DNA of 64,000 bases, taken from assembly GCA_035700025.1 (NCBI GenBank), contig DASSOY010000007.1, positions 1,193-65,192 of the forward strand, written 5' to 3'. Shown here one piece after another: positions 25,647 through 58,578 of this stretch. Each line of letters starts with the position of its first letter. The first letter of the stretch is position 1. The notes below the pieces were generated by a model. The model had not been told where the DNA came from. It was given only the letters and a program-made list of their open reading frames with translations, and ran no database searches. Origin of the DNA: Bacillales bacterium (lineage in GTDB: Bacteria > Bacillota > Bacilli > Bacillales > DASSOY01). The translations under genes and the position numbers were made by a program.

Positions 25647-26054
<408 letters not shown>

Positions 26055-26056
26055 GG

Positions 26057-26089
26057 AAACAGCCCTTTGCGGGGCTGTTTTTTGTTTTT
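26057..26089 (+). terminator. Intrinsic terminator of the atp operon, abutting the stop of the convergent LuxR gene
   Basis: AAACAGCCC-TTTGCG-GGGCTGTTT followed by a T-rich run (TTTTTTGTTTTT). Confidence 0.8.
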
Positions 26090-27614
26090 AAATAAGGCCG
26101 TTTCTCACTGCCCGAACCGCTGCTTCCGTGCGGTTGCGGGCGTTCATTTTTTGCATGATTGTCGAAACGTAATCTCTCACCGTATATTCGCTTAAATGCA
26201 GGTGTTCCGCCGCCTCGGTCGTCGTGGCGCCGTCGGCCATCAGTTTTAAGACGTCGAGCTCTCGCTGTGAGAGCTGATAAGAGAAACTGGTCCGGGTTCG
26301 CTCCGGTTCGTCTCCTCCGTATTTTGTCAGCAATTCGCCGGCGCTTTGACCGAAGTGCATGAGCGCCATGAATGTTTCGCGCGGCATTTTGAACGACTTT
26401 TCCGGTCCTTGGTCCAAGACGACGGCCCCAATCAGCTTGTTTTCGGACGGTACGTACACGGGAGCGACCACGACCGTTTTCAGCTGAAACTTGCGAACGT
26501 ATTGCAATGGAAACGCTTCTTCCGCTGAAGGAATGTAGATCGGCTGCCAAAGTCTCATGTGATGGTCGTGCGGCAGGAGGTTTTTCAAGTTCTTTTCCAG
26601 CAACGGTACGTGTTCGATGGGGAGCTTGATGCGGCGAATTTCATCGGCATTGAGCTCGCAGCCGAACAAGCCGGATCCGGTACGGTCGTCGTCGGAATAG
26701 GCAAACAGCGCACACCTTTCAAACGGCAAGTAGTTGACAAACCCTTGCGTCACTTTTTCCAACGCTTCTCTCAGCGTTCCCGCCGGCATGATCCAATTGT
26801 TGAACAAGCGCACGGCGTCTTTCCATTGTTGCTTTTGCTGTGTAAACTGCCGCATCGACTCGCCGGCAGCGTGAATTTGCAACACGAACGTCAGAAAAGG
26901 AAGGAGAGATGCTGCATCTTGACCGGATGTGCCGATCAACAACGTTTCCTCTCTCCAGGGGACCGGCAAGACGTGTCTTTCTTTAGTTGACGAAGACGGG
27001 AACGCCGCTAAGAGCTTCTCGGACAACAAGAAAACCGACTCGGCTGCCAATGGGGTTTCCCGTCGGCACAACCCGTCCGGTCCGATGATCGCCGTCACTT
27101 CATAGCGGGAATGGCGTTGCTTTGCACGGGCCACCCAGTCGACGGGCAATTGCCGGGAGGAAACGAGCTGTTCCACTAGTCGGGTGATGTTCACTTGTTC
27201 GTGAAACGGGGTCGACAGAAGGAGTTCGCCGATTTGCCCAAATAAAAATTGCACTGCTTGGTGATTGCGGCGGGAGTCGGCGCCGGTATCGCCGGAAACC
27301 GCGCGGTGAACAGCATTTTCTAACATCGTGACGACAAAGATGACGTGATTCGGATGGAACCGGGCGTCAACGGTGCAGGCGCTTTCTTCCAATTTTATAA
27401 AAAAAACGTTTGCGTCTTCCGCAGGCTCGCTGAAAAAATGGTTCGCAAAAAAATCGATGCCCGTTTCCATCGCCGCCGCTGTTTTTCCTCCATGTTCCCG
27501 GACTTGCGCACGCATGGCTGCCCATTCATCCTCGATGAAATTTCGGTGGCTTCTGACCAAATCCAATCCGGTTTGCAAAACCGCTTTCAGCTGCCGATCC
27601 AAGGAAAGCGCCAT
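26088..27614 (-). CDS. One-component transcriptional regulator: unknown N-terminal domain, a GAF-like domain and a C-terminal LuxR/GerE HTH
   Basis: The C-terminus LSQRELDVLKLMADGATTTEAAEHLHLSEYTVRDYVSTIMQKMNARNRTEAAVRAV is a canonical LuxR-type HTH. The preceding ~150 aa (ALEKVTQGFVNYLPFERCALFAY...LIGAVVLDQ) look GAF-like. There is no receiver domain. Confidence 0.85.
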   Translation of the reverse strand: MALSLDRQLKAVLQTGLDLVRSHRNFIEDEWAAMRAQVREHGGKTAAAMETGIDFFANHFFSEPAEDANVFFIKLEESACTVDARFHPNHVIFVVTMLENAVHRAVSGDTGADSRRNHQAVQFLFGQIGELLLSTPFHEQVNITRLVEQLVSSRQLPVDWVARAKQRHSRYEVTAIIGPDGLCRRETPLAAESVFLLSEKLLAAFPSSSTKERHVLPVPWREETLLIGTSGQDAASLLPFLTFVLQIHAAGESMRQFTQQKQQWKDAVRLFNNWIMPAGTLREALEKVTQGFVNYLPFERCALFAYSDDDRTGSGLFGCELNADEIRRIKLPIEHVPLLEKNLKNLLPHDHHMRLWQPIYIPSAEEAFPLQYVRKFQLKTVVVAPVYVPSENKLIGAVVLDQGPEKSFKMPRETFMALMHFGQSAGELLTKYGGDEPERTRTSFSYQLSQRELDVLKLMADGATTTEAAEHLHLSEYTVRDYVSTIMQKMNARNRTEAAVRAVRNGLI

Positions 27615-27780
27615 GATCGAGCCGACTCCTTTCGTTTTTCCGATTTCTTCCTATTCAACAAATTTCGGACACAATGGTTCCTTTTACAGGGGTACGCCGC
27701 GAATTGCGGAAGCTCTTTTTCATCCGAACCAACCCTTCATTCGTCGGGAGGCGTCTGGCAAATCCCCACACGTCTCGGAA

Positions 27781-27819
27781 TTGTCGGAGGGCAAGACTGT
27801 GCATACAATTAAAATTGTA
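27781..27819 (+). promoter_or_regulatory. Candidate sigmaA promoter of the 3-gene operon, with a palindrome overlapping the -10
   Basis: TTGTCG (27781-27786), a 17-nt spacer, then TACAAT (27804-27809). The perfect inverted repeat TACAATT-AA-AATTGTA spans 27804-27819. Confidence 0.45.
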
Positions 27820-27863
27820 AGCGTTTTCCTATTCAAATTCGAACAATGCGGAGGGAGAAGAAC

Positions 27864-28469
27864 ATGAATGCAGTGCTCCGTCATGAACCTACGGAAGAAG
27901 CGTCTTGCATCGTTGCGGGACGTATCGTGAAAAAGAAGTTTTTCGCGGCGCTCCTTGCGGGATTTCTCATGCTCGGCGGCTTGGCGGCGGCTTTTGGTAT
28001 TTCCGGAGTCGCTTTTGCGATGCCGATCGGTGGAATCGGCAACTTTCACGTCGAATTCGATAAGCTTGTCGGCACGAATTTTAAATTTTTTCCGAAACTC
28101 GGCGAAACCGGCAACAAAGACAAAGCGCCGATGGTCCGCAACAAAATCGACGAAGCGACCGTTTACGGCTTGCACATTTACAAAAACATCACGTTGCCGG
28201 GCGGGAACGATATCCGCCTGAACATCACCGCCGACAAACCGGTGAAAATCAAAGGCCTCATTCAGGACGCCAGATTCATCGAAGGGAATTTCCAGTTCAA
28301 CGATTTGGCGATCGCCGAGCATAACACAGACGATTTCACGAAAGAGTTTACCCAGGAAGCGAGTCATCTCGTGATCAAAAACGCGAGCATCGTGACCGAC
28401 TATTTGTTTCAAAGCATGGTTACGTTGAATGGAACGAAAATATACGTCGAAGACATTCCCGACAAGTAA
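27864..28469 (+). CDS. Secreted or membrane-anchored protein of unknown function (from memory resembles actinobacterial DUF6230; unverified)
   Basis: ATG 27864 follows GGAGGGAG. The signal-peptide-like N-terminus is KKKFFAALLAGFLMLGGLAAAFGISGVAFA|MP, followed by a ~150-aa beta-rich domain (FHVEFDKLVGTNF...LVIKNASIVTDYLFQSMVTL). Confidence 0.75.
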   Translation: MNAVLRHEPTEEASCIVAGRIVKKKFFAALLAGFLMLGGLAAAFGISGVAFAMPIGGIGNFHVEFDKLVGTNFKFFPKLGETGNKDKAPMVRNKIDEATVYGLHIYKNITLPGGNDIRLNITADKPVKIKGLIQDARFIEGNFQFNDLAIAEHNTDDFTKEFTQEASHLVIKNASIVTDYLFQSMVTLNGTKIYVEDIPDK

Positions 28470-28508
28470 ACGCGAACGGTTCGGCAACCGGAACAAAGAG
28501 GTGAGAAG

Positions 28509-28979
28509 ATGGCGAAAATCGAGCAAAATGCCGCCAAAAAGACGGAAAAACAGCGAAAGCGGCGGGAGGATGTAATCCAGGCGGGTCCGTTCAAACGGTG
28601 GCGAAGCGAGCGGCCGTTTTGGGGAGCGACGTTAACGCTGCTTTCCGGGATCATGATTTTATACATTCCCGTACAATTGTACGCGATCGCTTTTGCTCCC
28701 GGGAGTTTTGCCTTTGTCGGATTGTTGTTCGGGGGATTGATCGTGATCATCGGCAGCATGGCTTATAGGTACCCGCCGTTTTCGACGGTGTTCGGCGTAG
28801 TGACGATTTTTCTTTCCGTGTTGTCGATCATGGGTGCGCTCGGCGGATTCGTCATTGGCACCATCATTGGCATCATCGGCGGCGCGTTGTGCATTGCTTG
28901 GCAGCCGGAAATGGTTTCGAGCGAAACAGAAATCAGCGCCGTACAAGAACAGCTTGAGGAACCCGGATTAGGAGAATAA
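28509..28979 (+). CDS. Small 4-TM membrane protein of unknown function (from memory resembles DUF6114; unverified)
   Basis: A basic cytoplasmic N-terminus (KKTEKQRKRRED) is followed by four hydrophobic, Gly-rich helices. RBS AAGAGGTGA. It lies 39 nt after the upstream gene. Confidence 0.75.
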   Translation: MAKIEQNAAKKTEKQRKRREDVIQAGPFKRWRSERPFWGATLTLLSGIMILYIPVQLYAIAFAPGSFAFVGLLFGGLIVIIGSMAYRYPPFSTVFGVVTIFLSVLSIMGALGGFVIGTIIGIIGGALCIAWQPEMVSSETEISAVQEQLEEPGLGE

Positions 28980-28981
28980 AA

Positions 28982-30445
28982 ATGAAGCCGTTCACACGGA
29001 CGATCAGACAACCGCATATGTGGCTGGCCGTTGTCGTCATGGCGTTTCTCGCCGTACCGATAGGCGGGCAAGATGCGGCAGCCGCGGGCGAATCGCCGCA
29101 TGGATTCGTCATCCATGCCAACCGGATTTCCGGCGACATGCTGCCCCCGACGATCGTCGTCAAAAACGGACGACCGTTGCTGCGGTTCCGTTATCGGTCG
29201 GCGGTCATCAGAGGGTTGTCGATGACGAAGCAATTGGCGACGCCGGAAGGGCCGATGACGGTAAAAGTGCACGCCGCTTCGGCAGAAGCGAAAAACATGA
29301 AGGTCGATGCTTCGGCGTTCACGTTCGGCGGGGCTTGCTTAACACTCGGCGAAGCGCGGCCGCAACTCGTGCTAAAGAACGTGACGATGGTTGCCCATTA
29401 TCAATCGGCGAGCCGCCTCCGGCTCGAGCAAGCAAAGATTGGCGCGGTTCCGGGAAGGCACGGGCTCGACCGGCCGTCCGCGCCTGACTGGTTGCAACAG
29501 TTGCAACAAACCAGTGCCGCTTCGTTGCGAGAGGCGATTGAAAAGCTGATGAACGGAAACGTGCCTTTGTTGCCGTGCAGCAGCGGGAAAGATGACGGGC
29601 AGAACAAGCAGACGTCGGTTGTTGGTAAGGGGATGCACGGCGATGAGGTCGATAAAGTCGAACAAACCGCGAAAACGATCGAACAAGCGGCTGCCGGAAC
29701 TGTCAATGGCGCGGTCGATGGTATCGTTGGCGGACAAACCGGAAAAGCTGTTGGCGGTTTGCTCGATGAGGCGGAAGCAGGGGAGTTGCCATCCTTGCCG
29801 GAAGACCTCGAGCAAACCGTATGCGACGGTGTCGAAGCGCTGAAGAAACGTTTGGGCGAACTCGAGAGTGCAATCGATGAGCTCGAAAAAACCGTCACCG
29901 CCGCGACGGCGAAAACGAATGACGAATTAACAGCGGTTGATCAATTAAAGAAGCGGTTGCAAGAAATTCATGGTGAAATCGAACCGCTTGTCGCCGCCGA
30001 GCCGGACCGGGAAAATTTTACACGGTTAAAGGAACAAGCGGAGGACTTGAAACGGCAAGAAGAAGAGCTGCGTCAGTTAAAGGGAGCGGCCAACGACCGA
30101 CGGCTGAAGCTGGAACAGCTTCAGGCGCGATTGAACAGCTTGCAACAGCAAGCCGCCGGCATCGACGTGCCGCCGGGCTGCTCGTCAGTTTCTGCGGACG
30201 AGGCAACGGATGCGCTCCGCCGTCTTCGCCAACAAACTGAAACGGGACGTGAGCTGCTCGATCGCCTTGGCCATCAAATCGAAACGAGCGAAGCGATCGT
30301 CAAGACGATCGTCCGTGAAGCAGAAACGTACCTGAAAGAAGCGCAGCAAGCATGGGAAAGCCGATTGCTCAGCGGAATAACGGACGCGCTTAGGAACTTG
30401 GCGAACGAAGTGGAAGATGTACTGACCGACATAAAGAAAGAATGA
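28982..30445 (+). CDS. Secreted protein: N-terminal domain paralogous to the 27864-28469 product, plus a long C-terminal coiled coil
   Basis: The ATG is 2 nt after the upstream stop, behind AGGAGAA. The signal peptide is MWLAVVVMAFLAVPIGGQDAAAA. The N-domain aligns with the first ORF in three collinear blocks. The C-terminal ~250 aa are heptad-like and E/K/Q/L-rich. Confidence 0.75.
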   Translation: MKPFTRTIRQPHMWLAVVVMAFLAVPIGGQDAAAAGESPHGFVIHANRISGDMLPPTIVVKNGRPLLRFRYRSAVIRGLSMTKQLATPEGPMTVKVHAASAEAKNMKVDASAFTFGGACLTLGEARPQLVLKNVTMVAHYQSASRLRLEQAKIGAVPGRHGLDRPSAPDWLQQLQQTSAASLREAIEKLMNGNVPLLPCSSGKDDGQNKQTSVVGKGMHGDEVDKVEQTAKTIEQAAAGTVNGAVDGIVGGQTGKAVGGLLDEAEAGELPSLPEDLEQTVCDGVEALKKRLGELESAIDELEKTVTAATAKTNDELTAVDQLKKRLQEIHGEIEPLVAAEPDRENFTRLKEQAEDLKRQEEELRQLKGAANDRRLKLEQLQARLNSLQQQAAGIDVPPGCSSVSADEATDALRRLRQQTETGRELLDRLGHQIETSEAIVKTIVREAETYLKEAQQAWESRLLSGITDALRNLANEVEDVLTDIKKE

Positions 30446-30469: not shown

Positions 30470-31268
30470 CAAAAGCGAATCTTTCTGATGCTCGGAAAGC
30501 GATGCCGCTCGTTAGCGGCATATCTACGCTTCTCATGTACGATTCACCCATTTGTCGGTGGCACCGACAATTTCCGATTGGTCGAACTGCTGGAATCGCT
30601 CATGAGAGACGCTATTTGGATGGATATCGCGATTTTTTACCGATTATCGCTCATAGAGAACGCTATTTTTTTAGAAACCCCGGAAATCGCATTGATTTCC
30701 GGGTGGTTTTTAGAAATAGCGCTTCTCATGAGCGTTTCTATTTAAAAACCGGGCATATTAGGAAAATAGCGAATCTGATGCACGTTTTTTAATATAGCAT
30801 GAGATTTTCGGTAAACCGAAAATTTCCGATTGGTAGAACTGCTGAAATCGCTCATGAGGAACGCTATTTGGATGGAAATCGCGATTTTTACCGATTATCG
30901 CTCATAGAGAACGCTATTTTTTAAGAAACCCCGGAAATCGCATCGATTTCCGTAAGGTTTTTGGAAATAGCGCTTCTCATGAGCGTTTCCATTTAAAAAC
31001 CGGGCATATTAAGAAAATAGCGAATCTGATGCACGTTTTTTAATATAACATGAGATTTTCGGTCAACCGAAAATTTCCGATTGATCGAACTGCTGAAATC
31101 GCTCATGAGAGACGCTATTTGGATCGAATTCGCGATTTTTACCGATTATCGCTCATAGAGAACGCTATTTTTTAAGAAACCCCGGAAATCGCATCGATTT
31201 CCGGGTGGTTTTTGGAAATAGCGAATCTGATGCACGATTTTAACAAAGCATGAGATTTTCGGAACCGA
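30470..31268. repeat. Tandem array of a structured ~251-bp intergenic repeat: partial unit, two full units, and one unit with an internal deletion
   Basis: The anchor TTTCCGATTG recurs at 30571, 30823 and 31074 (periods of 252 and 251 bp). Units share the hairpins ATTTTCGG-TAAA-CCGAAAAT and CCCGGAAATC-GCATT-GATTTCCGGG, plus four copies of a ~21-nt box (CGCTCATGAGAGACGCTATTT), two direct and two inverted. Confidence 0.88.
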
Positions 31269-31777: not shown

Positions 31778-32295
31778 ATTTGAGCGGTATTACGCCTCAA
31801 GAACAGGAAGAGCTGAAAAGAAACGTGTTTCTCGTCACGCTCGAGCAAATGAAAGCTTGGGCGCGAAGCAATTCGTTATGGCCGATGACATTCGGGCTCG
31901 CTTGCTGCGCGATTGAAATGATGGGCACTGGTGCATCCCACTATGATCTCGATCGGTTCGGTTCGATTTTTCGCACGTCTCCGCGGCAGTCGGACGTCAT
32001 GATTGTGTCAGGAACGGTTACGAAAAAAATGGCCCCGGTCATTCGCCGGTTGTACGATCAAATGCCGGATCCGAAGTGGGTGATCGCGATGGGCTCGTGT
32101 GCAACCGCAGGCGGTCCATATGTGTATTCTTACGCGGTCGTGAAGGGCGTCGATCAAGTCGTTCCGGTTGATGTGTACATCCCGGGGTGCCCGCCGAATC
32201 CCGCGGCTCTCATTTACGGCATTCATAAATTGCAAGAAAAAATTCGCCAAGAAGCGAAAACCGGAAAGCGGGTGAAGCGCGTTGGCGAACGATGA
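31768..32295 (+). CDS. nuoB: NADH:quinone oxidoreductase subunit B
   Basis: [17 protein letters not shown]...[10 protein letters not shown]...IPGCPP (N2 cluster ligands). ATG 31768 overlaps the nuoA stop. Confidence 0.95.
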
Positions 32296-33562
32296 TCGTC
32301 GGGACGAAAAGAAAGCGCTTACGGAGCAAGACGAAAAGACTTCAGGAAAGAAAAGCGCGGAAGAACGTGTAAGAGAGATTAAGAGGCGGAAGGAAGAAGC
32401 GAAGCGTGCGGCTGAAGGCGATGCGGAAGTGAAAAGCGAGGCGAAGCTTTCGGCTGAAGAGCGCGTACGGGAGATTAAAAGAAAAAAAGCAGCCGCCGCT
32501 GATTCGGCGAAGGCGAACGCTGATAAGAAGTCGGCCGCGGAAGCGCGTGTGGCGGAGATTAAGCGGCGGAAGGAAGCGGCGCAGGCCGGGTCAGCGGAGG
32601 AAACGAGTTCCGCGGGCAGTGCGAAGAAAGGCGCTGAAGAGCGCGTGCGCGAAATCAAAAGGAAAAAAGAAGCGGCAGCCGGCGGTTCGCCGGAGCCGAA
32701 CGCTGATAAGAAGTCGGCCGCGGAAGCGCGAGTCGCGGAGATTAAGCGGCGGAAGGCGGAAGCCGCGGCAAAGAAAGCCGGTGGCGATGAAGCTGGGAAG
32801 AAGCTTTCGGCCGAAGAGCGCGTAGCGGAGATCAAGCGAAAGAAGGAAGCGGCGAAGCGGAAAGCGGGCGAAGGCGAGCCCGCGGCGGACGCGAAGTCCG
32901 CTGCGCAGCAGCGCGTAGCGGAGATCAAGCGGAAGAAGGCGCTCGCGGCGCAGAAGAAGCAAGCGGACGGCGAAGCCGGCGACAAGAGCGATCGCGAGAA
33001 GAAGATCGCGGCGATGAAGGCGAAGGCGGCGGCGAAGAAAGCGGCAGCGAAGCGCGAAGCGCAGGCGGAGCCGGAGGCGCCGTCGGTGAATGAGCCGCTG
33101 CTGGCGAAGTACGTCGCGGTGATCAAGGAGCGGCTCGGGGACGAGGCGCTGGAGGCGGCGTACATCAACAGGCTGGCGAAGGAAGTGCCGACGTTGGTGG
33201 CGAAGCCGGAGGCGTACCGGGCGGTCGCTGAGTTGTTGAAGAGCGACGAGCGGCTGCATTTTGAGTATTTGGCGGAGATTCACGGGACGGATTTTGAGAC
33301 GCACATGGAAATGTATTTGCATTTATATTCTTATAAAAATCGTCAGGCGGTGGCCCTGAAGGTGAAAGTGGACCGCGACGCGCCGGAGATTGATTCGGTG
33401 ACGCCGGTCTGGAAAGGGGCGGACTGGCCGGAGCGGGAAGCGTATGATTTGCTCGGGATCCGCTTTAAAGGGCATCCGAACTTGACGCGCATCATGATGC
33501 CGGACGATTGGGTCGGGCATCCGCTCCGAAAAGATTATGAGCCGCACGACGCGGAGGTGTAG
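32282..33562 (+). CDS. nuoC: NADH:quinone oxidoreductase subunit C with a ~265-aa repetitive N-terminal extension
   Basis: The C-terminal ~160 aa are canonical NuoC ([32 protein letters not shown]). The N-terminal part is in frame and repeat-rich. The TTG start at 32282 overlaps the nuoB end, and the exact start is uncertain. Confidence 0.88.
32340..33070 (+). repeat. Intragenic tandem coding repeats in nuoC (7 clear copies and 1 degenerate copy of K-x-SAEERV(R/A)EIKR(K/R)K)
   Basis: The motif recurs about every 25-32 aa. Copies differ by synonymous codons: gta cgg gag att aaa aga at about 32465, versus gtg cgc gaa atc aaa agg at about 32645, both encoding VREIKR. Confidence 0.9.
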
Positions 33563-58039: not shown

Positions 58040-58578
58040 GGATTTAGCTCATACAGGTGAAAATTTCCGATAGGGCGAATTGCTGGAATCGCTCATGAGA
58101 GACGCTATTTGGATCAAATTCGCGATTTCCCAAAATTATCGCTCATCCAGAACGCTATTTTCCCAGAACCCCCGGAAATCGGATGGATTCCCGGTTGGTT
58201 TTTGGGAATAGCGCATCGTATGCACGATTCCATCTGAAAAAGCGGGCATATTAGGCAAATAGCGCATCTGATGCACGTTTTTCATATAACATGAGATTTT
58301 CGGTAAACCGAAAATGTCCGTTTGGTCGAACTGCTGGAATCGCTCATGAGAGACGCTATTTGGATCAAATTCGCGATTTCCAACGATTATCGCTCATCCA
58401 GAACGCTATTTTCAGAGAACCCCCGAAAATCGGATGGATTTCCGGTTGGTTTTTGGGAATAGCGCATCTGGTGCACGATTCCATCTGAAAAAGCGGGCAT
58501 ATCAGGCAAATAGCGCATCTGATGCACGATTTTCATATAACATGAGATTTTCGGTAAACCGAAAATGTTCGATTGGTG
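58040..58578. repeat. Second tandem array of the ~251-bp intergenic repeat family (two full units plus partial ends)
   Basis: GCTGGAATCGCTCATGAGAGACGCTATTTGGATCAAATTCGCGATTTCC occurs at 58082 and 58333 (period 251). The layout of boxes and hairpins matches the array at 30.47-31.27 kb. Confidence 0.88.

What the first reader, a model, noticed from the sequence alone, without database searches (positions are those of the whole stretch)
26088..30445. Uncharacterised 4-gene island between the atp and nuo operons: a GAF-LuxR regulator divergent from a coupled envelope operon
This segment interrupts otherwise housekeeping, B. subtilis-like synteny. It holds a 508-aa one-component regulator on the - strand, with an unknown ~270-aa N-domain, a GAF-like domain and a LuxR HTH but no receiver.

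The regulator faces a tightly packed + strand operon with gaps of 39 nt and 2 nt, each gene having its own RBS:
- A signal-peptide protein of about 200 aa.
- A 156-aa protein with four Gly-rich TM helices and a basic N-terminus.
- A 487-aa signal-peptide protein whose C-terminal half is a long coiled coil.

I recognise no catalytic motif in any of the three. From memory, the first two resemble the actinobacterial DUF6230/DUF6114 gene pair, which has no assigned function. If so, this is a Firmicute version extended by a coiled-coil paralog and a dedicated ligand-sensing regulator. The architecture suggests a regulated cell-surface or extracytoplasmic assembly: a small membrane platform plus two secreted subunits.

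The island is bounded downstream by the 251-bp repeat array, which is consistent with accessory DNA.
Basis: partly seen in the sequence, partly recalled or inferred. Interest (0 to 1): 0.8.

Follow-up and report, generated by a model that had tools for sequence, protein, structure and literature searches.

The report
Alkane-linked envelope gene cassette (DUF6230/DUF6114)
This four-gene island is real and belongs to a cassette found in at least 80 Bacillales species whose core secreted protein is a homologue of P16, a Geobacillus envelope protein induced by long-chain alkanes, so it most likely helps single-membrane microbes handle oily substrates at the cell surface.

Summary
A 508-aa GAF-LuxR one-component regulator (R) lies divergent from a tight operon: A (DUF6230, signal peptide), B (DUF6114, 4-TM, Gly-rich) and C (signal peptide, divergent DUF6230 domain, coiled coil).

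The cassette recurs in 85 loci:
- A-B adjacency: all loci
- C: 72 loci
- R: 63 loci

The family is not wholly uncharacterised. Published peptide sequences show that the alkane-inducible membrane-fraction proteins P16 and P21 of Geobacillus thermoleovorans B23 are DUF6230 proteins. P16 is the gene-A orthologue of the Geobacillus R|A-B cassette. Each has a DUF6114 gene downstream.

In at least 17 genera the cassette adjoins R2lox, a claimed alkane hydroxylase, together with ADH/ALDH/ABC1 or thiolase/SCP2/acyl-CoA-ligase genes. I also found a conserved 16-bp palindrome (58 of 59 loci), a cre-like site upstream of A (34 of 59), and a sortase/GDSL-esterase variant.

The mature domain models confidently as an all-beta fold with no PDB match.

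Best reading: a regulator-activated, catabolite-repressed envelope module for acquiring or handling long-chain hydrophobic substrates. The mechanism is inferred, and no alkane genes lie in this window.

The parts
26054..26083 (.). Bidirectional terminator-like hairpin between atpC (ends 26054) and the 3' end of R
   Evidence: 13-bp stem followed by a T-run on the + strand.
26088..27614 (-). R: 508-aa one-component regulator. Unknown N-domain (residues 1-270, nt 26805-27614), GAF (281-413, nt 26376-26774), LuxR/GerE HTH (447-502, nt 26109-26276).
   Evidence: Full-length conservation with cassette-linked regulators of other genera. The N-domain gives only faint RsbRD_N / HisK-N globin-like hints in 2 of 14 homologues.
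27733..27748 (.). 16-bp palindrome CCCTTCATTCGTCGGG, candidate operator of R
   Evidence: The family consensus TCCTACAAATGTAGGG is found in 58 of 59 R-A intergenic regions. This is the only hit of at least 16 bits in the 64-kb window. It lies about 33 nt upstream of the predicted -35.
27781..27809 (+). Sigma-70-like promoter TTGTCG-17-TACAAT for the A-B-C operon
   Evidence: This is a consensus match only.
27816..27829 (+). cre-like (CcpA) site TGTAAGCGTTTTCC, immediately downstream of the -10
   Evidence: One mismatch to TGWAANCGNTNWCA. It is not significant in this window alone. It is positionally conserved in 34 of 59 loci, against 1.2 expected.
27864..28469 (+). A: 201-aa DUF6230 protein, a homologue of Geobacillus P16. 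Signal peptide residues 1-52 (nt 27864-28019), predicted cleavage AFA|MPIGG, mature all-beta domain nt 28020-28466. The longer ORF starts at 27846.
   Evidence: The P16 Edman N-terminus maps to the equivalent AxA| site. AF2 model pLDDT 86.8.
28509..28979 (+). B: 156-aa DUF6114 membrane protein with a basic cytoplasmic N-terminus and Gly-rich TM helices
   Evidence: It lies directly downstream of a DUF6230 gene in all 85 loci.
28982..30445 (+). C: 487-aa secreted protein. Signal peptide, divergent DUF6230 domain (about residues 40-157, nt 29099-29452), low-complexity linker, coiled coil (about residues 275-487, nt 29804-30442).
   Evidence: hhalign against the DUF6230 alignment gives prob 97.6%, E 4.6e-12. 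A C-type gene is present in 72 of 85 loci, with lengths from 174 to 820 aa.

Best explanation
The island is a self-regulated envelope module of the P16/P21 (DUF6230)-DUF6114 family.

Shown:
- A and C are paralogous DUF6230-domain proteins.
- A and B are always adjacent.
- R is the co-inherited divergent regulator.
- Geobacillus homologues of A are signal-peptide-processed, fractionate with the envelope, and are transcriptionally induced by long-chain alkanes.

Inferred mechanism:
1. R binds the 16-bp palindrome upstream of the A promoter and activates A-B-C when its GAF or N-terminal sensor domains detect a signal derived from a hydrophobic substrate.
2. CcpA bound at the cre site, which overlaps the transcription start, shuts the operon off when preferred carbon sources are present.
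3. A and C are exported by Sec and cleaved after AxA.
4. Their beta-barrel-like domains dock on the 4-TM protein B at the outer face of the membrane.
5. The variable coiled coil of C reaches into the wall. In other species a sortase-anchored A' does the same.
6. The assembly captures long-chain hydrophobic molecules (alkanes or other long-chain lipids) and hands them to the membrane. Cytoplasmic R2lox, ADH, ALDH, acyl-CoA ligase and beta-oxidation enzymes, encoded next to the cassette in many genomes, then consume them.
For: Family identity:
- Pfam DUF6230 and DUF6114 score above their cut-offs.
- The C N-domain is a DUF6230 paralogue.

Cassette conservation over 85 loci in more than 25 genera, with different flanks:
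- A-B adjacency in all 85.
- C in 72.
- R in 63.
- Median gaps 27 and 32 nt.

Experimental anchor:
- The P16 Edman peptide VPISGVGEFXVTFDKL maps to residue 46 of the Geobacillus gene-A orthologues, right after AYA.
- All four P21 peptides map to a 201-aa DUF6230 protein followed by a DUF6114 gene.
- P16 and P21 are induced at protein and mRNA level by C10-C34 alkanes. They are not induced by palmitate, triacylglycerols or in rich broth, and they sit in the insoluble fraction (PMC2676291).
- The P21 orthologue GK2770 adjoins GkR2loxI, ALDH, ADH and beta-oxidation genes (PMC10867098).

Genomic context:
- R2lox, verified against PDB 4HR0 (E 5e-126 and 1e-68), lies beside or co-directional with the cassette in two distinct arrangements. 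Across 17 named genera and several unnamed MAG lineages it comes with ADH/ALDH/ABC1 or with thiolase/SCP2/acyl-CoA ligase.

Regulation:
- The palindrome is in 58 of 59 loci. It also precedes ADH in L011 and the sortase/GDSL-esterase surface genes.
- A cre-like site is in 34 of 59 loci against 1.2 expected.

Extracytoplasmic location:
- LPxTA-anchored paralogues match the NCBI sorting-signal model in 6 of 6 cases.
- A sortase gene is adjacent in some loci.

Structure:
- Confident all-beta model with long amphipathic strands.

Distribution:
- Bacillales, Ktedonobacteria and haloarchaea, all single-membrane lineages.
Against: - No experiment shows transport, binding or any phenotype for any family member. 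'Transporter' in the 2024 paper is an assertion.
- The R2lox alkane-hydroxylase claim rests on modest activity in crude lysates.
- The window itself and many loci, for example the G. kaustophilus P16 locus, carry no lipid or alkane genes nearby.
- Much of the neighbour association could be inherited synteny within related genera.
- The operator PWM was trained on the regions it was scored on.
- The window's cre and promoter are consensus matches only.
- An A-B-C physical complex is not tested.
- The fold has no informative structural neighbour.
Confidence: 0.5

Rival explanations
1. Envelope stress or solvent-tolerance module. Hydrophobic compounds perturb the membrane, R senses this, and A/B/C reinforce or repair the outer face of the membrane and wall without moving any substrate.
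For: - Kato et al. list 'tolerance' as an option.
- Induction appears late, at about 10 days.
- A small membrane anchor plus a coiled-coil partner recalls LiaI/LiaH-type stress modules.
- Neobacillus loci have cell-wall neighbours BacA and PcsB.
- Many loci lack catabolic neighbours.
Against: - The best inducers are the longest alkanes (C22-C34), which are the least membrane-toxic.
- A cre-type catabolite control site is typical of catabolic operons.
- The cassette is co-directional with ADH-R2lox-ALDH in Laceyella, Pueribacillus and Planifilum.
- C is extracytoplasmic, unlike PspA/LiaH.
Confidence: 0.2
2. General cell-surface structure: an adhesin, fibre or matrix built from DUF6230 paralogues on a membrane base. 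Its association with hydrocarbon genes is incidental.
For: - Some species have LPxTA-anchored paralogues, a sortase, and Ig-like/collagen/MucBP LPXTG proteins under the same palindrome.
- The mature N-terminus is highly conserved but modelled with low confidence, as expected for an inter-subunit strand.
- The coiled-coil stalk is highly variable, like those of surface fibrils.
Against: - No pilin motif or class-C sortase is in the window. The window's A and C lack sorting signals.
- No SipW-type signal was found in 37 members.
- There is no fold match to TasA, pilins or adhesins.
- The alkane-specific induction and R2lox linkage are left unexplained. The two readings do overlap if the structure mediates adhesion to oil droplets.
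Confidence: 0.15
3. A is a secreted lipolytic enzyme (a 'cholesterol esterase') and B is its membrane chaperone.
For: - P16 and P21 N-termini resemble the Streptomyces lavendulae cholesterol esterase.
- GDSL esterases are neighbours in some loci.
Against: - Across 115 sequences the invariant residues of the mature domain are P, G, F, V, L, K, T, Y and Q. No Ser, His or Cys is among the invariant or 90%-conserved residues, so no Ser/His/Asp or Cys nucleophile set is evident.
- There is no lipase or hydrolase Pfam hit and no hydrolase fold match.
- Kato et al. found negligible full-length similarity.
- A separate GDSL esterase in the same regulon argues that A is not itself the esterase.
Confidence: 0.05

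Closest known systems
P16 and P21, alkane-inducible membrane proteins of Geobacillus thermoleovorans B23 (Kato et al. 2009, PMC2676291). Orthologues are GK3040 and GK2770 of G. kaustophilus (PMC10867098).
   Same: - Same Pfam family, DUF6230.
- About 44% identity between window A and the Geobacillus P16-type proteins.
- Same AxA| cleavage site and the same conserved mature N-terminus.
- Same downstream DUF6114 partner, and for P16 the same divergent LuxR-type regulator, palindrome and cre.
   Different: - The window cassette has a third gene, C, that Geobacillus lacks.
- Its regulator is longer: 508 aa against about 393.
- It lies between atp and nuo, not near alkane genes.
- Alkane induction has not been tested in this organism.
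- The papers describe neither the DUF6114 partner, nor the regulator, nor the operator.
AlkL/OmpW and FadL outer-membrane channels for alkanes and fatty acids in Gram-negative bacteria
   Same: A proposed functional analogy. They are beta-barrel proteins encoded beside alkane or fatty-acid oxidation genes, and they bring hydrophobic substrates to the cytoplasmic membrane.
   Different: - No homology and no significant structural similarity. OprG, FadL and OmpX appear only as noise-level Foldseek hits (E of at least 0.29, TM at most 0.19).
- The hosts have no outer membrane.
- A is a Sec-exported protein with amphipathic strands, not a transmembrane barrel.
RamA-type GAF-LuxR regulators of Corynebacterium, which control acetate and ethanol metabolism and the S-layer gene (from my own knowledge)
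   Same: A GAF domain plus a C-terminal LuxR HTH without a receiver. They control carbon-source genes together with a cell-surface protein gene.
   Different: Only the HTH matches (NCBIfam RamA 36.7 bits against a cut-off of 500). R carries an extra N-domain of about 270 aa of unknown fold. It is not a RamA orthologue.
Sortase-dependent surface-protein islands of Bacillota, with LPxTA substrates of class-D sortases such as B. subtilis YhcS/YfkN (from my own knowledge)
   Same: Variant cassettes in Lentibacillus, Virgibacillus, Caldibacillus and others include a sortase and LPxTA/LPXTG-anchored proteins. One of these is a DUF6230 paralogue.
   Different: The window cassette has no sortase and no sorting signals. 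The core A-B pair does not depend on sortase.

Membership tests
Pfam DUF6230 (PF19741) | HMM score above the gathering cut-off (27.5 bits) | tested here: met
   A scores 46.3 bits, E 7e-12. The C N-domain scores only 16.1 bits (below cut-off), but profile-profile comparison gives prob 97.6%, E 4.6e-12 over 148 columns, so C is a remote paralogue.
Pfam DUF6114 (PF19609) | HMM score above the gathering cut-off (27.9 bits) | tested here: met
   B scores 104.5 bits, E 6e-30, covering the full-length profile 1-106.
P16/P21 alkane-inducible envelope proteins (Kato 2009) | Sequence homology to P16/P21, including the conserved mature N-terminus | tested here: met
   The P16 peptide maps to Geobacillus gene-A orthologues. 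These align with window A at about 44% identity. Window A reads AFA|MPIGGIGNFHVEFDKL against P16's AYA|VPISGVGEFTVQFDKL.
P16/P21 alkane-inducible envelope proteins (Kato 2009) | Transcriptional induction by long-chain alkanes, and membrane-fraction localisation | not testable with these tools
   This needs culture of the organism, which is known only as a MAG. The only indirect support is the shared operator and cre architecture with the Geobacillus P16 locus.
LuxR/GerE-family one-component regulator with GAF sensor | GerE HTH and GAF domain above Pfam cut-offs, with no receiver domain | tested here: met
   GerE 62.8 bits against 23.5. GAF 27.6 bits against 22.4. No Response_reg hit. PDB matches are restricted to the HTH.
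RamA (acetate-metabolism GAF-LuxR regulator) | NCBIfam equivalog score of at least 500 | tested here: not met
   36.7 bits, HTH region only.
TasA/SipW-type matrix proteins | SipW-cognate signal peptide (TIGR04088), an adjacent SipW gene, and the TasA/camelysin fold | tested here: not met
   0 of 37 DUF6230 proteins match TIGR04088. No SipW-like gene appears among the annotated genes or recurrent neighbour families. There is no fold match.
Sortase-assembled pili or LPXTG surface proteins | A C-terminal sorting signal and a neighbouring sortase | tested here: not met
   Window A and C have no LPXTG/LPxTA signal and none of the four island genes is a sortase; the rest of the window was not screened. 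The feature is met only by the A' paralogues of other species.
Lipase or cholesterol esterase (GDSL or alpha/beta hydrolase) | Catalytic Ser/His/Asp motif, or a hydrolase-family HMM or fold match | tested here: not met
   No hydrolase Pfam hit. No conserved Ser, His or Cys in the mature domain. No hydrolase fold match.
Known anti-phage defence systems (PADLOC) | A specific model match | tested here: not met
   Only generic HTH and coiled-coil matches.

The most novel reading that the evidence does not exclude
DUF6230/DUF6114 is the core of a dedicated machine that captures and takes up long-chain hydrocarbons and lipids in single-membrane prokaryotes. On this reading it would be:
- present in Bacillota, Chloroflexota-Ktedonobacteria and haloarchaea, and probably Actinomycetota;
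- built on a beta-barrel-like fold with no solved relative;
- docked on a Gly-rich 4-TM protein;
- functionally equivalent to AlkL/FadL of Gram-negative bacteria;
- controlled by a new GAF-LuxR sensor of hydrophobic substrates.
Probability: 0.3. Interest if true: 0.85.

Novelty: new variant of a known kind. Interest (0 to 1): 0.62.

Why it matters
How Gram-positive bacteria and archaea bring water-insoluble long-chain alkanes and lipids across a thick wall to the membrane is unresolved. No dedicated uptake proteins are established for them.

This analysis ties two old, barely followed-up alkane-induced Geobacillus proteins to two large 'domain of unknown function' families (DUF6114 alone has about 1,100 clusters at 50% identity). 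It also defines:
- an obligate membrane partner,
- a cognate regulator,
- a candidate operator and catabolite-control site,
- accessory paralogues,
- a repeated physical link to R2lox-centred oxidation clusters.

Together these turn a vague annotation into a system that can be tested genetically and biochemically. It is relevant to bioremediation, to alkane and lipid bioconversion in thermophilic Bacillota, and to the unsolved physiological role of R2lox.

Tried and rejected
- **SipW/TasA lead.** One UniRef name read 'SipW-cognate class signal peptide'. No DUF6230 protein matches TIGR04088 and no SipW gene is nearby. Dropped.
- **Domain fusions of DUF6114.** Ten long fusion proteins gave no informative partner. 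One had CARDB/Fn3-like domains.
- **Full-length gene C homologue search.** It was swamped by coiled-coil word matches and returned only 2 hits. I used loci-derived sequences instead.
- **Profile search with the DUF6230 alignment.** Meant to reach named actinobacterial members such as 'cholesterol esterase', it stayed within Bacillales. Actinobacterial context therefore remains untested.
- **tblastn of B against plasmids.** No hit.
- **The search for related loci with a 40-sequence DUF6114 alignment.** It worked with 13 closer sequences.
- **Fold searches.** Two models were searched against PDB. Sequence and profile searches of A, B and the R N-domain were also run against PDB. Nothing significant.
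- **PADLOC.** Nothing specific.
- **Dietzia alkane transcriptome and proteome papers.** No mention of these families.
- **First metagenome pattern for P21.** No match. A shorter pattern gave 120 stretches, of which only one (L122) was a true P21 locus.
- **cre site in the window alone.** Not significant. I rely only on cross-locus conservation.

Full report
**1. The observation**

*Regulator R* (26088-27614, minus strand, 508 aa):
- It has a GerE/LuxR HTH at residues 447-502 (E 2e-17).
- It has a GAF domain at residues 281-413 (27.6 bits against a 22.4 cut-off).
- It has no receiver domain.
- PDB sequence matches cover only the HTH.
- Residues 1-270 match no family. In 2 of 14 homologues there are faint hints of RsbR-type or HisK-N globin-like sensor domains.

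*Gene A*:
- It most probably starts at ATG 27864, giving 201 aa, with RBS GGAGGG at 27850-27855. This equals NCBI's own call P0001 from a 'Bacillales bacterium' MAG.
- It is DUF6230, at 46.3 bits.

*Gene B* (28509-28979, 156 aa):
- It is DUF6114, at 104.5 bits.
- It has a basic N-terminus and Gly-rich hydrophobic helices.

*Gene C* (28982-30445, 487 aa):
- It has a signal-type N-terminus.
- Its C-terminal half matches only coiled-coil models.

*Operon layout and boundaries*:
- The 39-nt and 2-nt gaps and the individual RBSs are confirmed.
- A bidirectional terminator-like hairpin separates atpC from R.
- The 251-bp tandem array is real. A second array lies at 58059-58577, so it is a dispersed repeat rather than an island border.
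- Base composition of the island is unremarkable.

**2. A conserved cassette, not a one-off**

- A homologue search with A found about 150 Bacillales proteins. A subset of about 270 aa ends in LPxTA plus a TM segment plus a basic tail.
- All six such proteins tested match NCBI's LPxTATN sorting-signal model. The DUF6230 domain is therefore extracytoplasmic.
- Neighbourhoods in Virgibacillus, Tuberibacillus, Caldibacillus and Geobacillus show the same layout in unrelated flanks.
- A genome scan with a DUF6114 alignment returned 80 more loci.
- Labelling their ORFs with HMMs built from my alignments gave these counts over 85 loci:

| Feature | Loci (of 85) |
|---|---|
| DUF6230 gene directly upstream of DUF6114 | 85 (median gap 27 nt) |
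| C-type gene downstream | 72 |
| Cognate full-length regulator, divergent | 63 |
| Two or more upstream DUF6230 paralogues | 18 |
| LPxTA-anchored paralogue | 9 |

- C ranges from 174 to 820 aa. The Neobacillus forms of about 190 aa are just the N-domain, and they hit both the C and the A HMMs.
- Profile-profile comparison of 71 C N-domains with the DUF6230 alignment gives probability 97.6%, E 4.6e-12 over 148 columns.
- Geobacillus has only R (about 393 aa), A and B. The core is therefore R|A-B, with C and A' as accessories.
- None of the other loci lies between atp and nuo. This is the real argument that the island is accessory.
- DUF6114 is a large family, with 1,128 clusters at 50% identity at E of at most 1e-3.
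- Named distant DUF6114 members come from Halobacteria and Ktedonobacteria.
- Two haloarchaeal loci carry A-B pairs.

**3. The family is not uncharacterised**

A full-text search for 'DUF6230' or 'DUF6114' finds nothing useful. Gene context led to the literature instead.

Recurrent neighbours of the cassette fall into three sets.

*Set 1*: ketoreductase-thiolase-SCP2-R2lox-acyl-CoA ligase, upstream of R. Its acyl-CoA-ligase gene is present in 16 loci from 10 genera, including Virgibacillus, Ornithinibacillus, Salinibacillus and Robertmurraya.

*Set 2*: Zn-ADH-R2lox-ALDH-ABC1/UbiB kinase.
- It is co-directional and directly upstream of A-B-C in Laceyella, Melghirimyces, Pueribacillus and two MAGs.
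- In Planifilum it lies between R and A.

*Set 3*: a sortase island with this gene order: DUF6801-Ig-like-collagen-LPXTG protein, sortase, GDSL-esterase-Ig-like-LPXTG protein, A'(LPxTA), A, B, C.
- It occurs in Lentibacillus and relatives, and in part in Caldibacillus and Virgibacillus.

The 'Ribonuc_red_sm' neighbours are true R2-like ligand-binding oxidases. Their best PDB hit is GkR2loxI 4HR0 (E 5e-126 and 1e-68), followed by the M. tuberculosis and Sulfolobus R2lox structures.

*Nithimethachoke et al. 2024 (PMC10867098)*:
- They report that GkR2loxI (GK2771) has alkane-hydroxylating activity.
- GK2771 sits in a cluster with ALDH, ADH, acyl-CoA ligase and beta-oxidation genes.
- The adjacent GK2770 and the distant GK3040 are orthologues of P21 and P16.

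*Kato et al. 2009 (PMC2676291)*, on G. thermoleovorans B23:
- P16 and P21 accumulate when the strain degrades alkanes, and more so with longer chains (C10 to C34).
- They are not induced by palmitate, tributyrin, trimyristin or DCPK, nor in rich broth.
- Induction occurs at the mRNA level.
- The proteins are found in the insoluble fraction.
- Both have cleaved signal peptides of 45 and 38 residues.
- Their N-termini resemble the Streptomyces lavendulae 'cholesterol esterase'.

*I tested the link directly*:
- The P16 Edman sequence VPISGVGEFXVTFDKL maps, with 1-2 mismatches, to residue 46 of the 196-aa-class Geobacillus gene-A proteins of my R|A-B loci, right after AYA.
- A metagenomic contig (L122) encodes a 201-aa protein that matches all four published P21 peptides with at most 2 mismatches. 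The N-terminal peptide starts at residue 39.
- Pfam calls that protein DUF6230 (38.6 bits). The next gene is a 381-aa protein with a C-terminal DUF6114 domain (50.6 bits).
- The G. kaustophilus P16 orthologue, its downstream gene and its divergent neighbour are DUF6230 (52.1 bits), DUF6114 (97.3 bits) and a GerE regulator.

Both alkane-induced proteins are therefore DUF6230 members with DUF6114 partners, and P16 is the orthologue of gene A. By homology, window A should be cleaved at AFA|MPIGGIGNFHVEFDKL. Neither paper mentions the DUF6114 partner, the regulator or any operator.

**4. Regulation**

The R-A intergenic regions are otherwise unalignable between genera, yet they share two elements.

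*A 16-bp palindrome, consensus TCCTACAAATGTAGGG*:
- It scores above the 99th percentile of shuffles in 58 of 59 regions. The matrix was trained on the same regions, so this is supportive rather than independent.
- Scanning 1.2 Mb of loci gives 91 hits of at least 16 bits, nearly all directly upstream of A or A'.
- Extra copies lie upstream of the DUF6801-Ig-like gene in four Lentibacillus loci, near the GDSL and sortase genes, and upstream of ADH in L011.
- The 64-kb window has exactly one hit, CCCTTCATTCGTCGGG at 27733-27748. It lies about 33 nt upstream of a promoter-like TTGTCG-17-TACAAT at 27781-27809.
- I take it as the operator of R, placed as for an activator. This is inference.

*A cre-like site*:
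- A match to the CcpA cre consensus TGWAANCGNTNWCA lies just upstream of A.
- 34 of 59 regions have a site within one mismatch (shuffles: mean 1.2, maximum 3). 14 are exact (shuffles: 0.02).
- The window's site is TGTAAGCGTTTTCC at 27816-27829, just after the -10. On its own it is not significant (6 such sites in the window against 4.9 expected). Its value comes from positional conservation.
- Catabolite repression fits the lack of P16/P21 induction in rich broth. It also argues for a role in using an alternative carbon source.

**5. Structure**

- With 37 sequences, full-length A models as an N-terminal helix plus an all-beta domain (pLDDT 79).
- With 115 sequences, the mature domain gives pLDDT 86.8 and pTM 0.79.
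  - It has very long strands at residues 9-28, 75-94 and 110-130.
  - Its first six residues are disordered.
- Foldseek against PDB finds nothing significant for either model: best E is 0.012 and 0.029, with TM at most 0.19.
  - The noise-level hits are beta-barrels such as OmpX, OmpA, OprG, FadL, PsbO, PloI4 and avidin.
- The invariant residues of the mature domain are P, G, F, V, L, K, T, Y and Q. No Ser, His or Cys is conserved, which argues against a hydrolase.
- The DUF6114 profile has no PDB relatives.
- PADLOC finds no defence-system match.

**6. Interpretation**

Solid:
- The island belongs to the P16/P21(DUF6230)-DUF6114 family.
- A and C are secreted paralogues.
- B is the invariant membrane partner.
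- R is the co-inherited regulator.
- Homologues respond to long-chain alkanes.
- The cassette is repeatedly linked to R2lox-centred oxidation clusters.

Inferred:
- R activates transcription from the palindrome and CcpA represses at the cre.
- A and C dock on B.
- The assembly captures or transfers hydrophobic substrates.

I put about 0.5 on the acquisition or handling reading. The rivals are:

| Rival | Confidence |
|---|---|
| Envelope or solvent tolerance | 0.2 |
| Generic surface structure or adhesion (overlaps if it mediates adhesion to oil) | 0.15 |
| Esterase | 0.05 |

Caveats:
- No family member has a tested phenotype.
- The R2lox activity claim is based on crude lysates.
- This window and many loci have no alkane genes nearby.
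- Part of the neighbour signal may be inherited synteny.
- Actinobacterial contexts could not be examined.

**7. Novelty**

The secreted component has a published, though thin, experimental history, so this is not categorically new.

The following appear to be undescribed:
- the system-level picture of an obligate DUF6114 partner, a cognate GAF-LuxR regulator with an operator, and a cre site;
- the coiled-coil and sortase-anchored paralogues;
- the breadth across single-membrane lineages;
- a fold without solved relatives.

The window's four-gene form is a variant of the Geobacillus three-gene form.

Noticed in passing
window 30563-31223 and 58059-58577: The 251-bp tandem repeat (2.6 copies, 93%) has a second array about 27 kb away at roughly 85% identity. 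Each unit carries a terminator-like hairpin CCCGGAAATCG-CAT-CGATTTCCGGG. It looks like a dispersed intergenic repeat family of this genome.
   Followed up: partly
window 32282-33562 (+): This 426-aa ORF has a C-terminus that looks like NuoC by eye. It carries an N-terminal Lys/Ala/Glu-rich extension of about 260 aa, with around eight copies of an '[14 protein letters not shown]'-type repeat. GC rises to 0.65 there. Such an extension is unusual for a complex I subunit.
   Followed up: no
L077 6375-7441; L085 3938-6619: Haloarchaeal genomes (Halomarina rubra and a Haloarculaceae MAG) carry DUF6230-DUF6114 pairs, duplicated in tandem in L085. Their mature N-termini are of the P21 'GGFTISAD' subtype.
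   Followed up: partly
L081 913-5005; L017, L027, L043, L019, L013, L003: A sortase island sits upstream of A'-A-B-C. It encodes a DUF6801-Ig-like-collagen-LPXTG protein, a sortase, and a GDSL-esterase-Ig-like-LPXTG protein. In L017, L027, L043 and L081 a second copy of the 16-bp palindrome lies upstream of the island's first gene. DUF6801 is another domain of unknown function.
   Followed up: partly
L009 493-2268; L079 4626-6392; L073 10236-12002; L011, L026, L074: An ABC1/UbiB-type atypical kinase is a recurrent member of the ADH-R2lox-ALDH set next to the cassette, in six genera. This suggests a conserved but undescribed R2lox-ABC1 functional unit.
   Followed up: no
Neobacillus loci, e.g. 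L062 8249-8899 and L040 8081-9337: In Neobacillus the cassette is flanked by a PhaP phasin, a PcsB-like CHAP/NlpC-P60 hydrolase and BacA/UppP. This is probably within-genus synteny.
   Followed up: no
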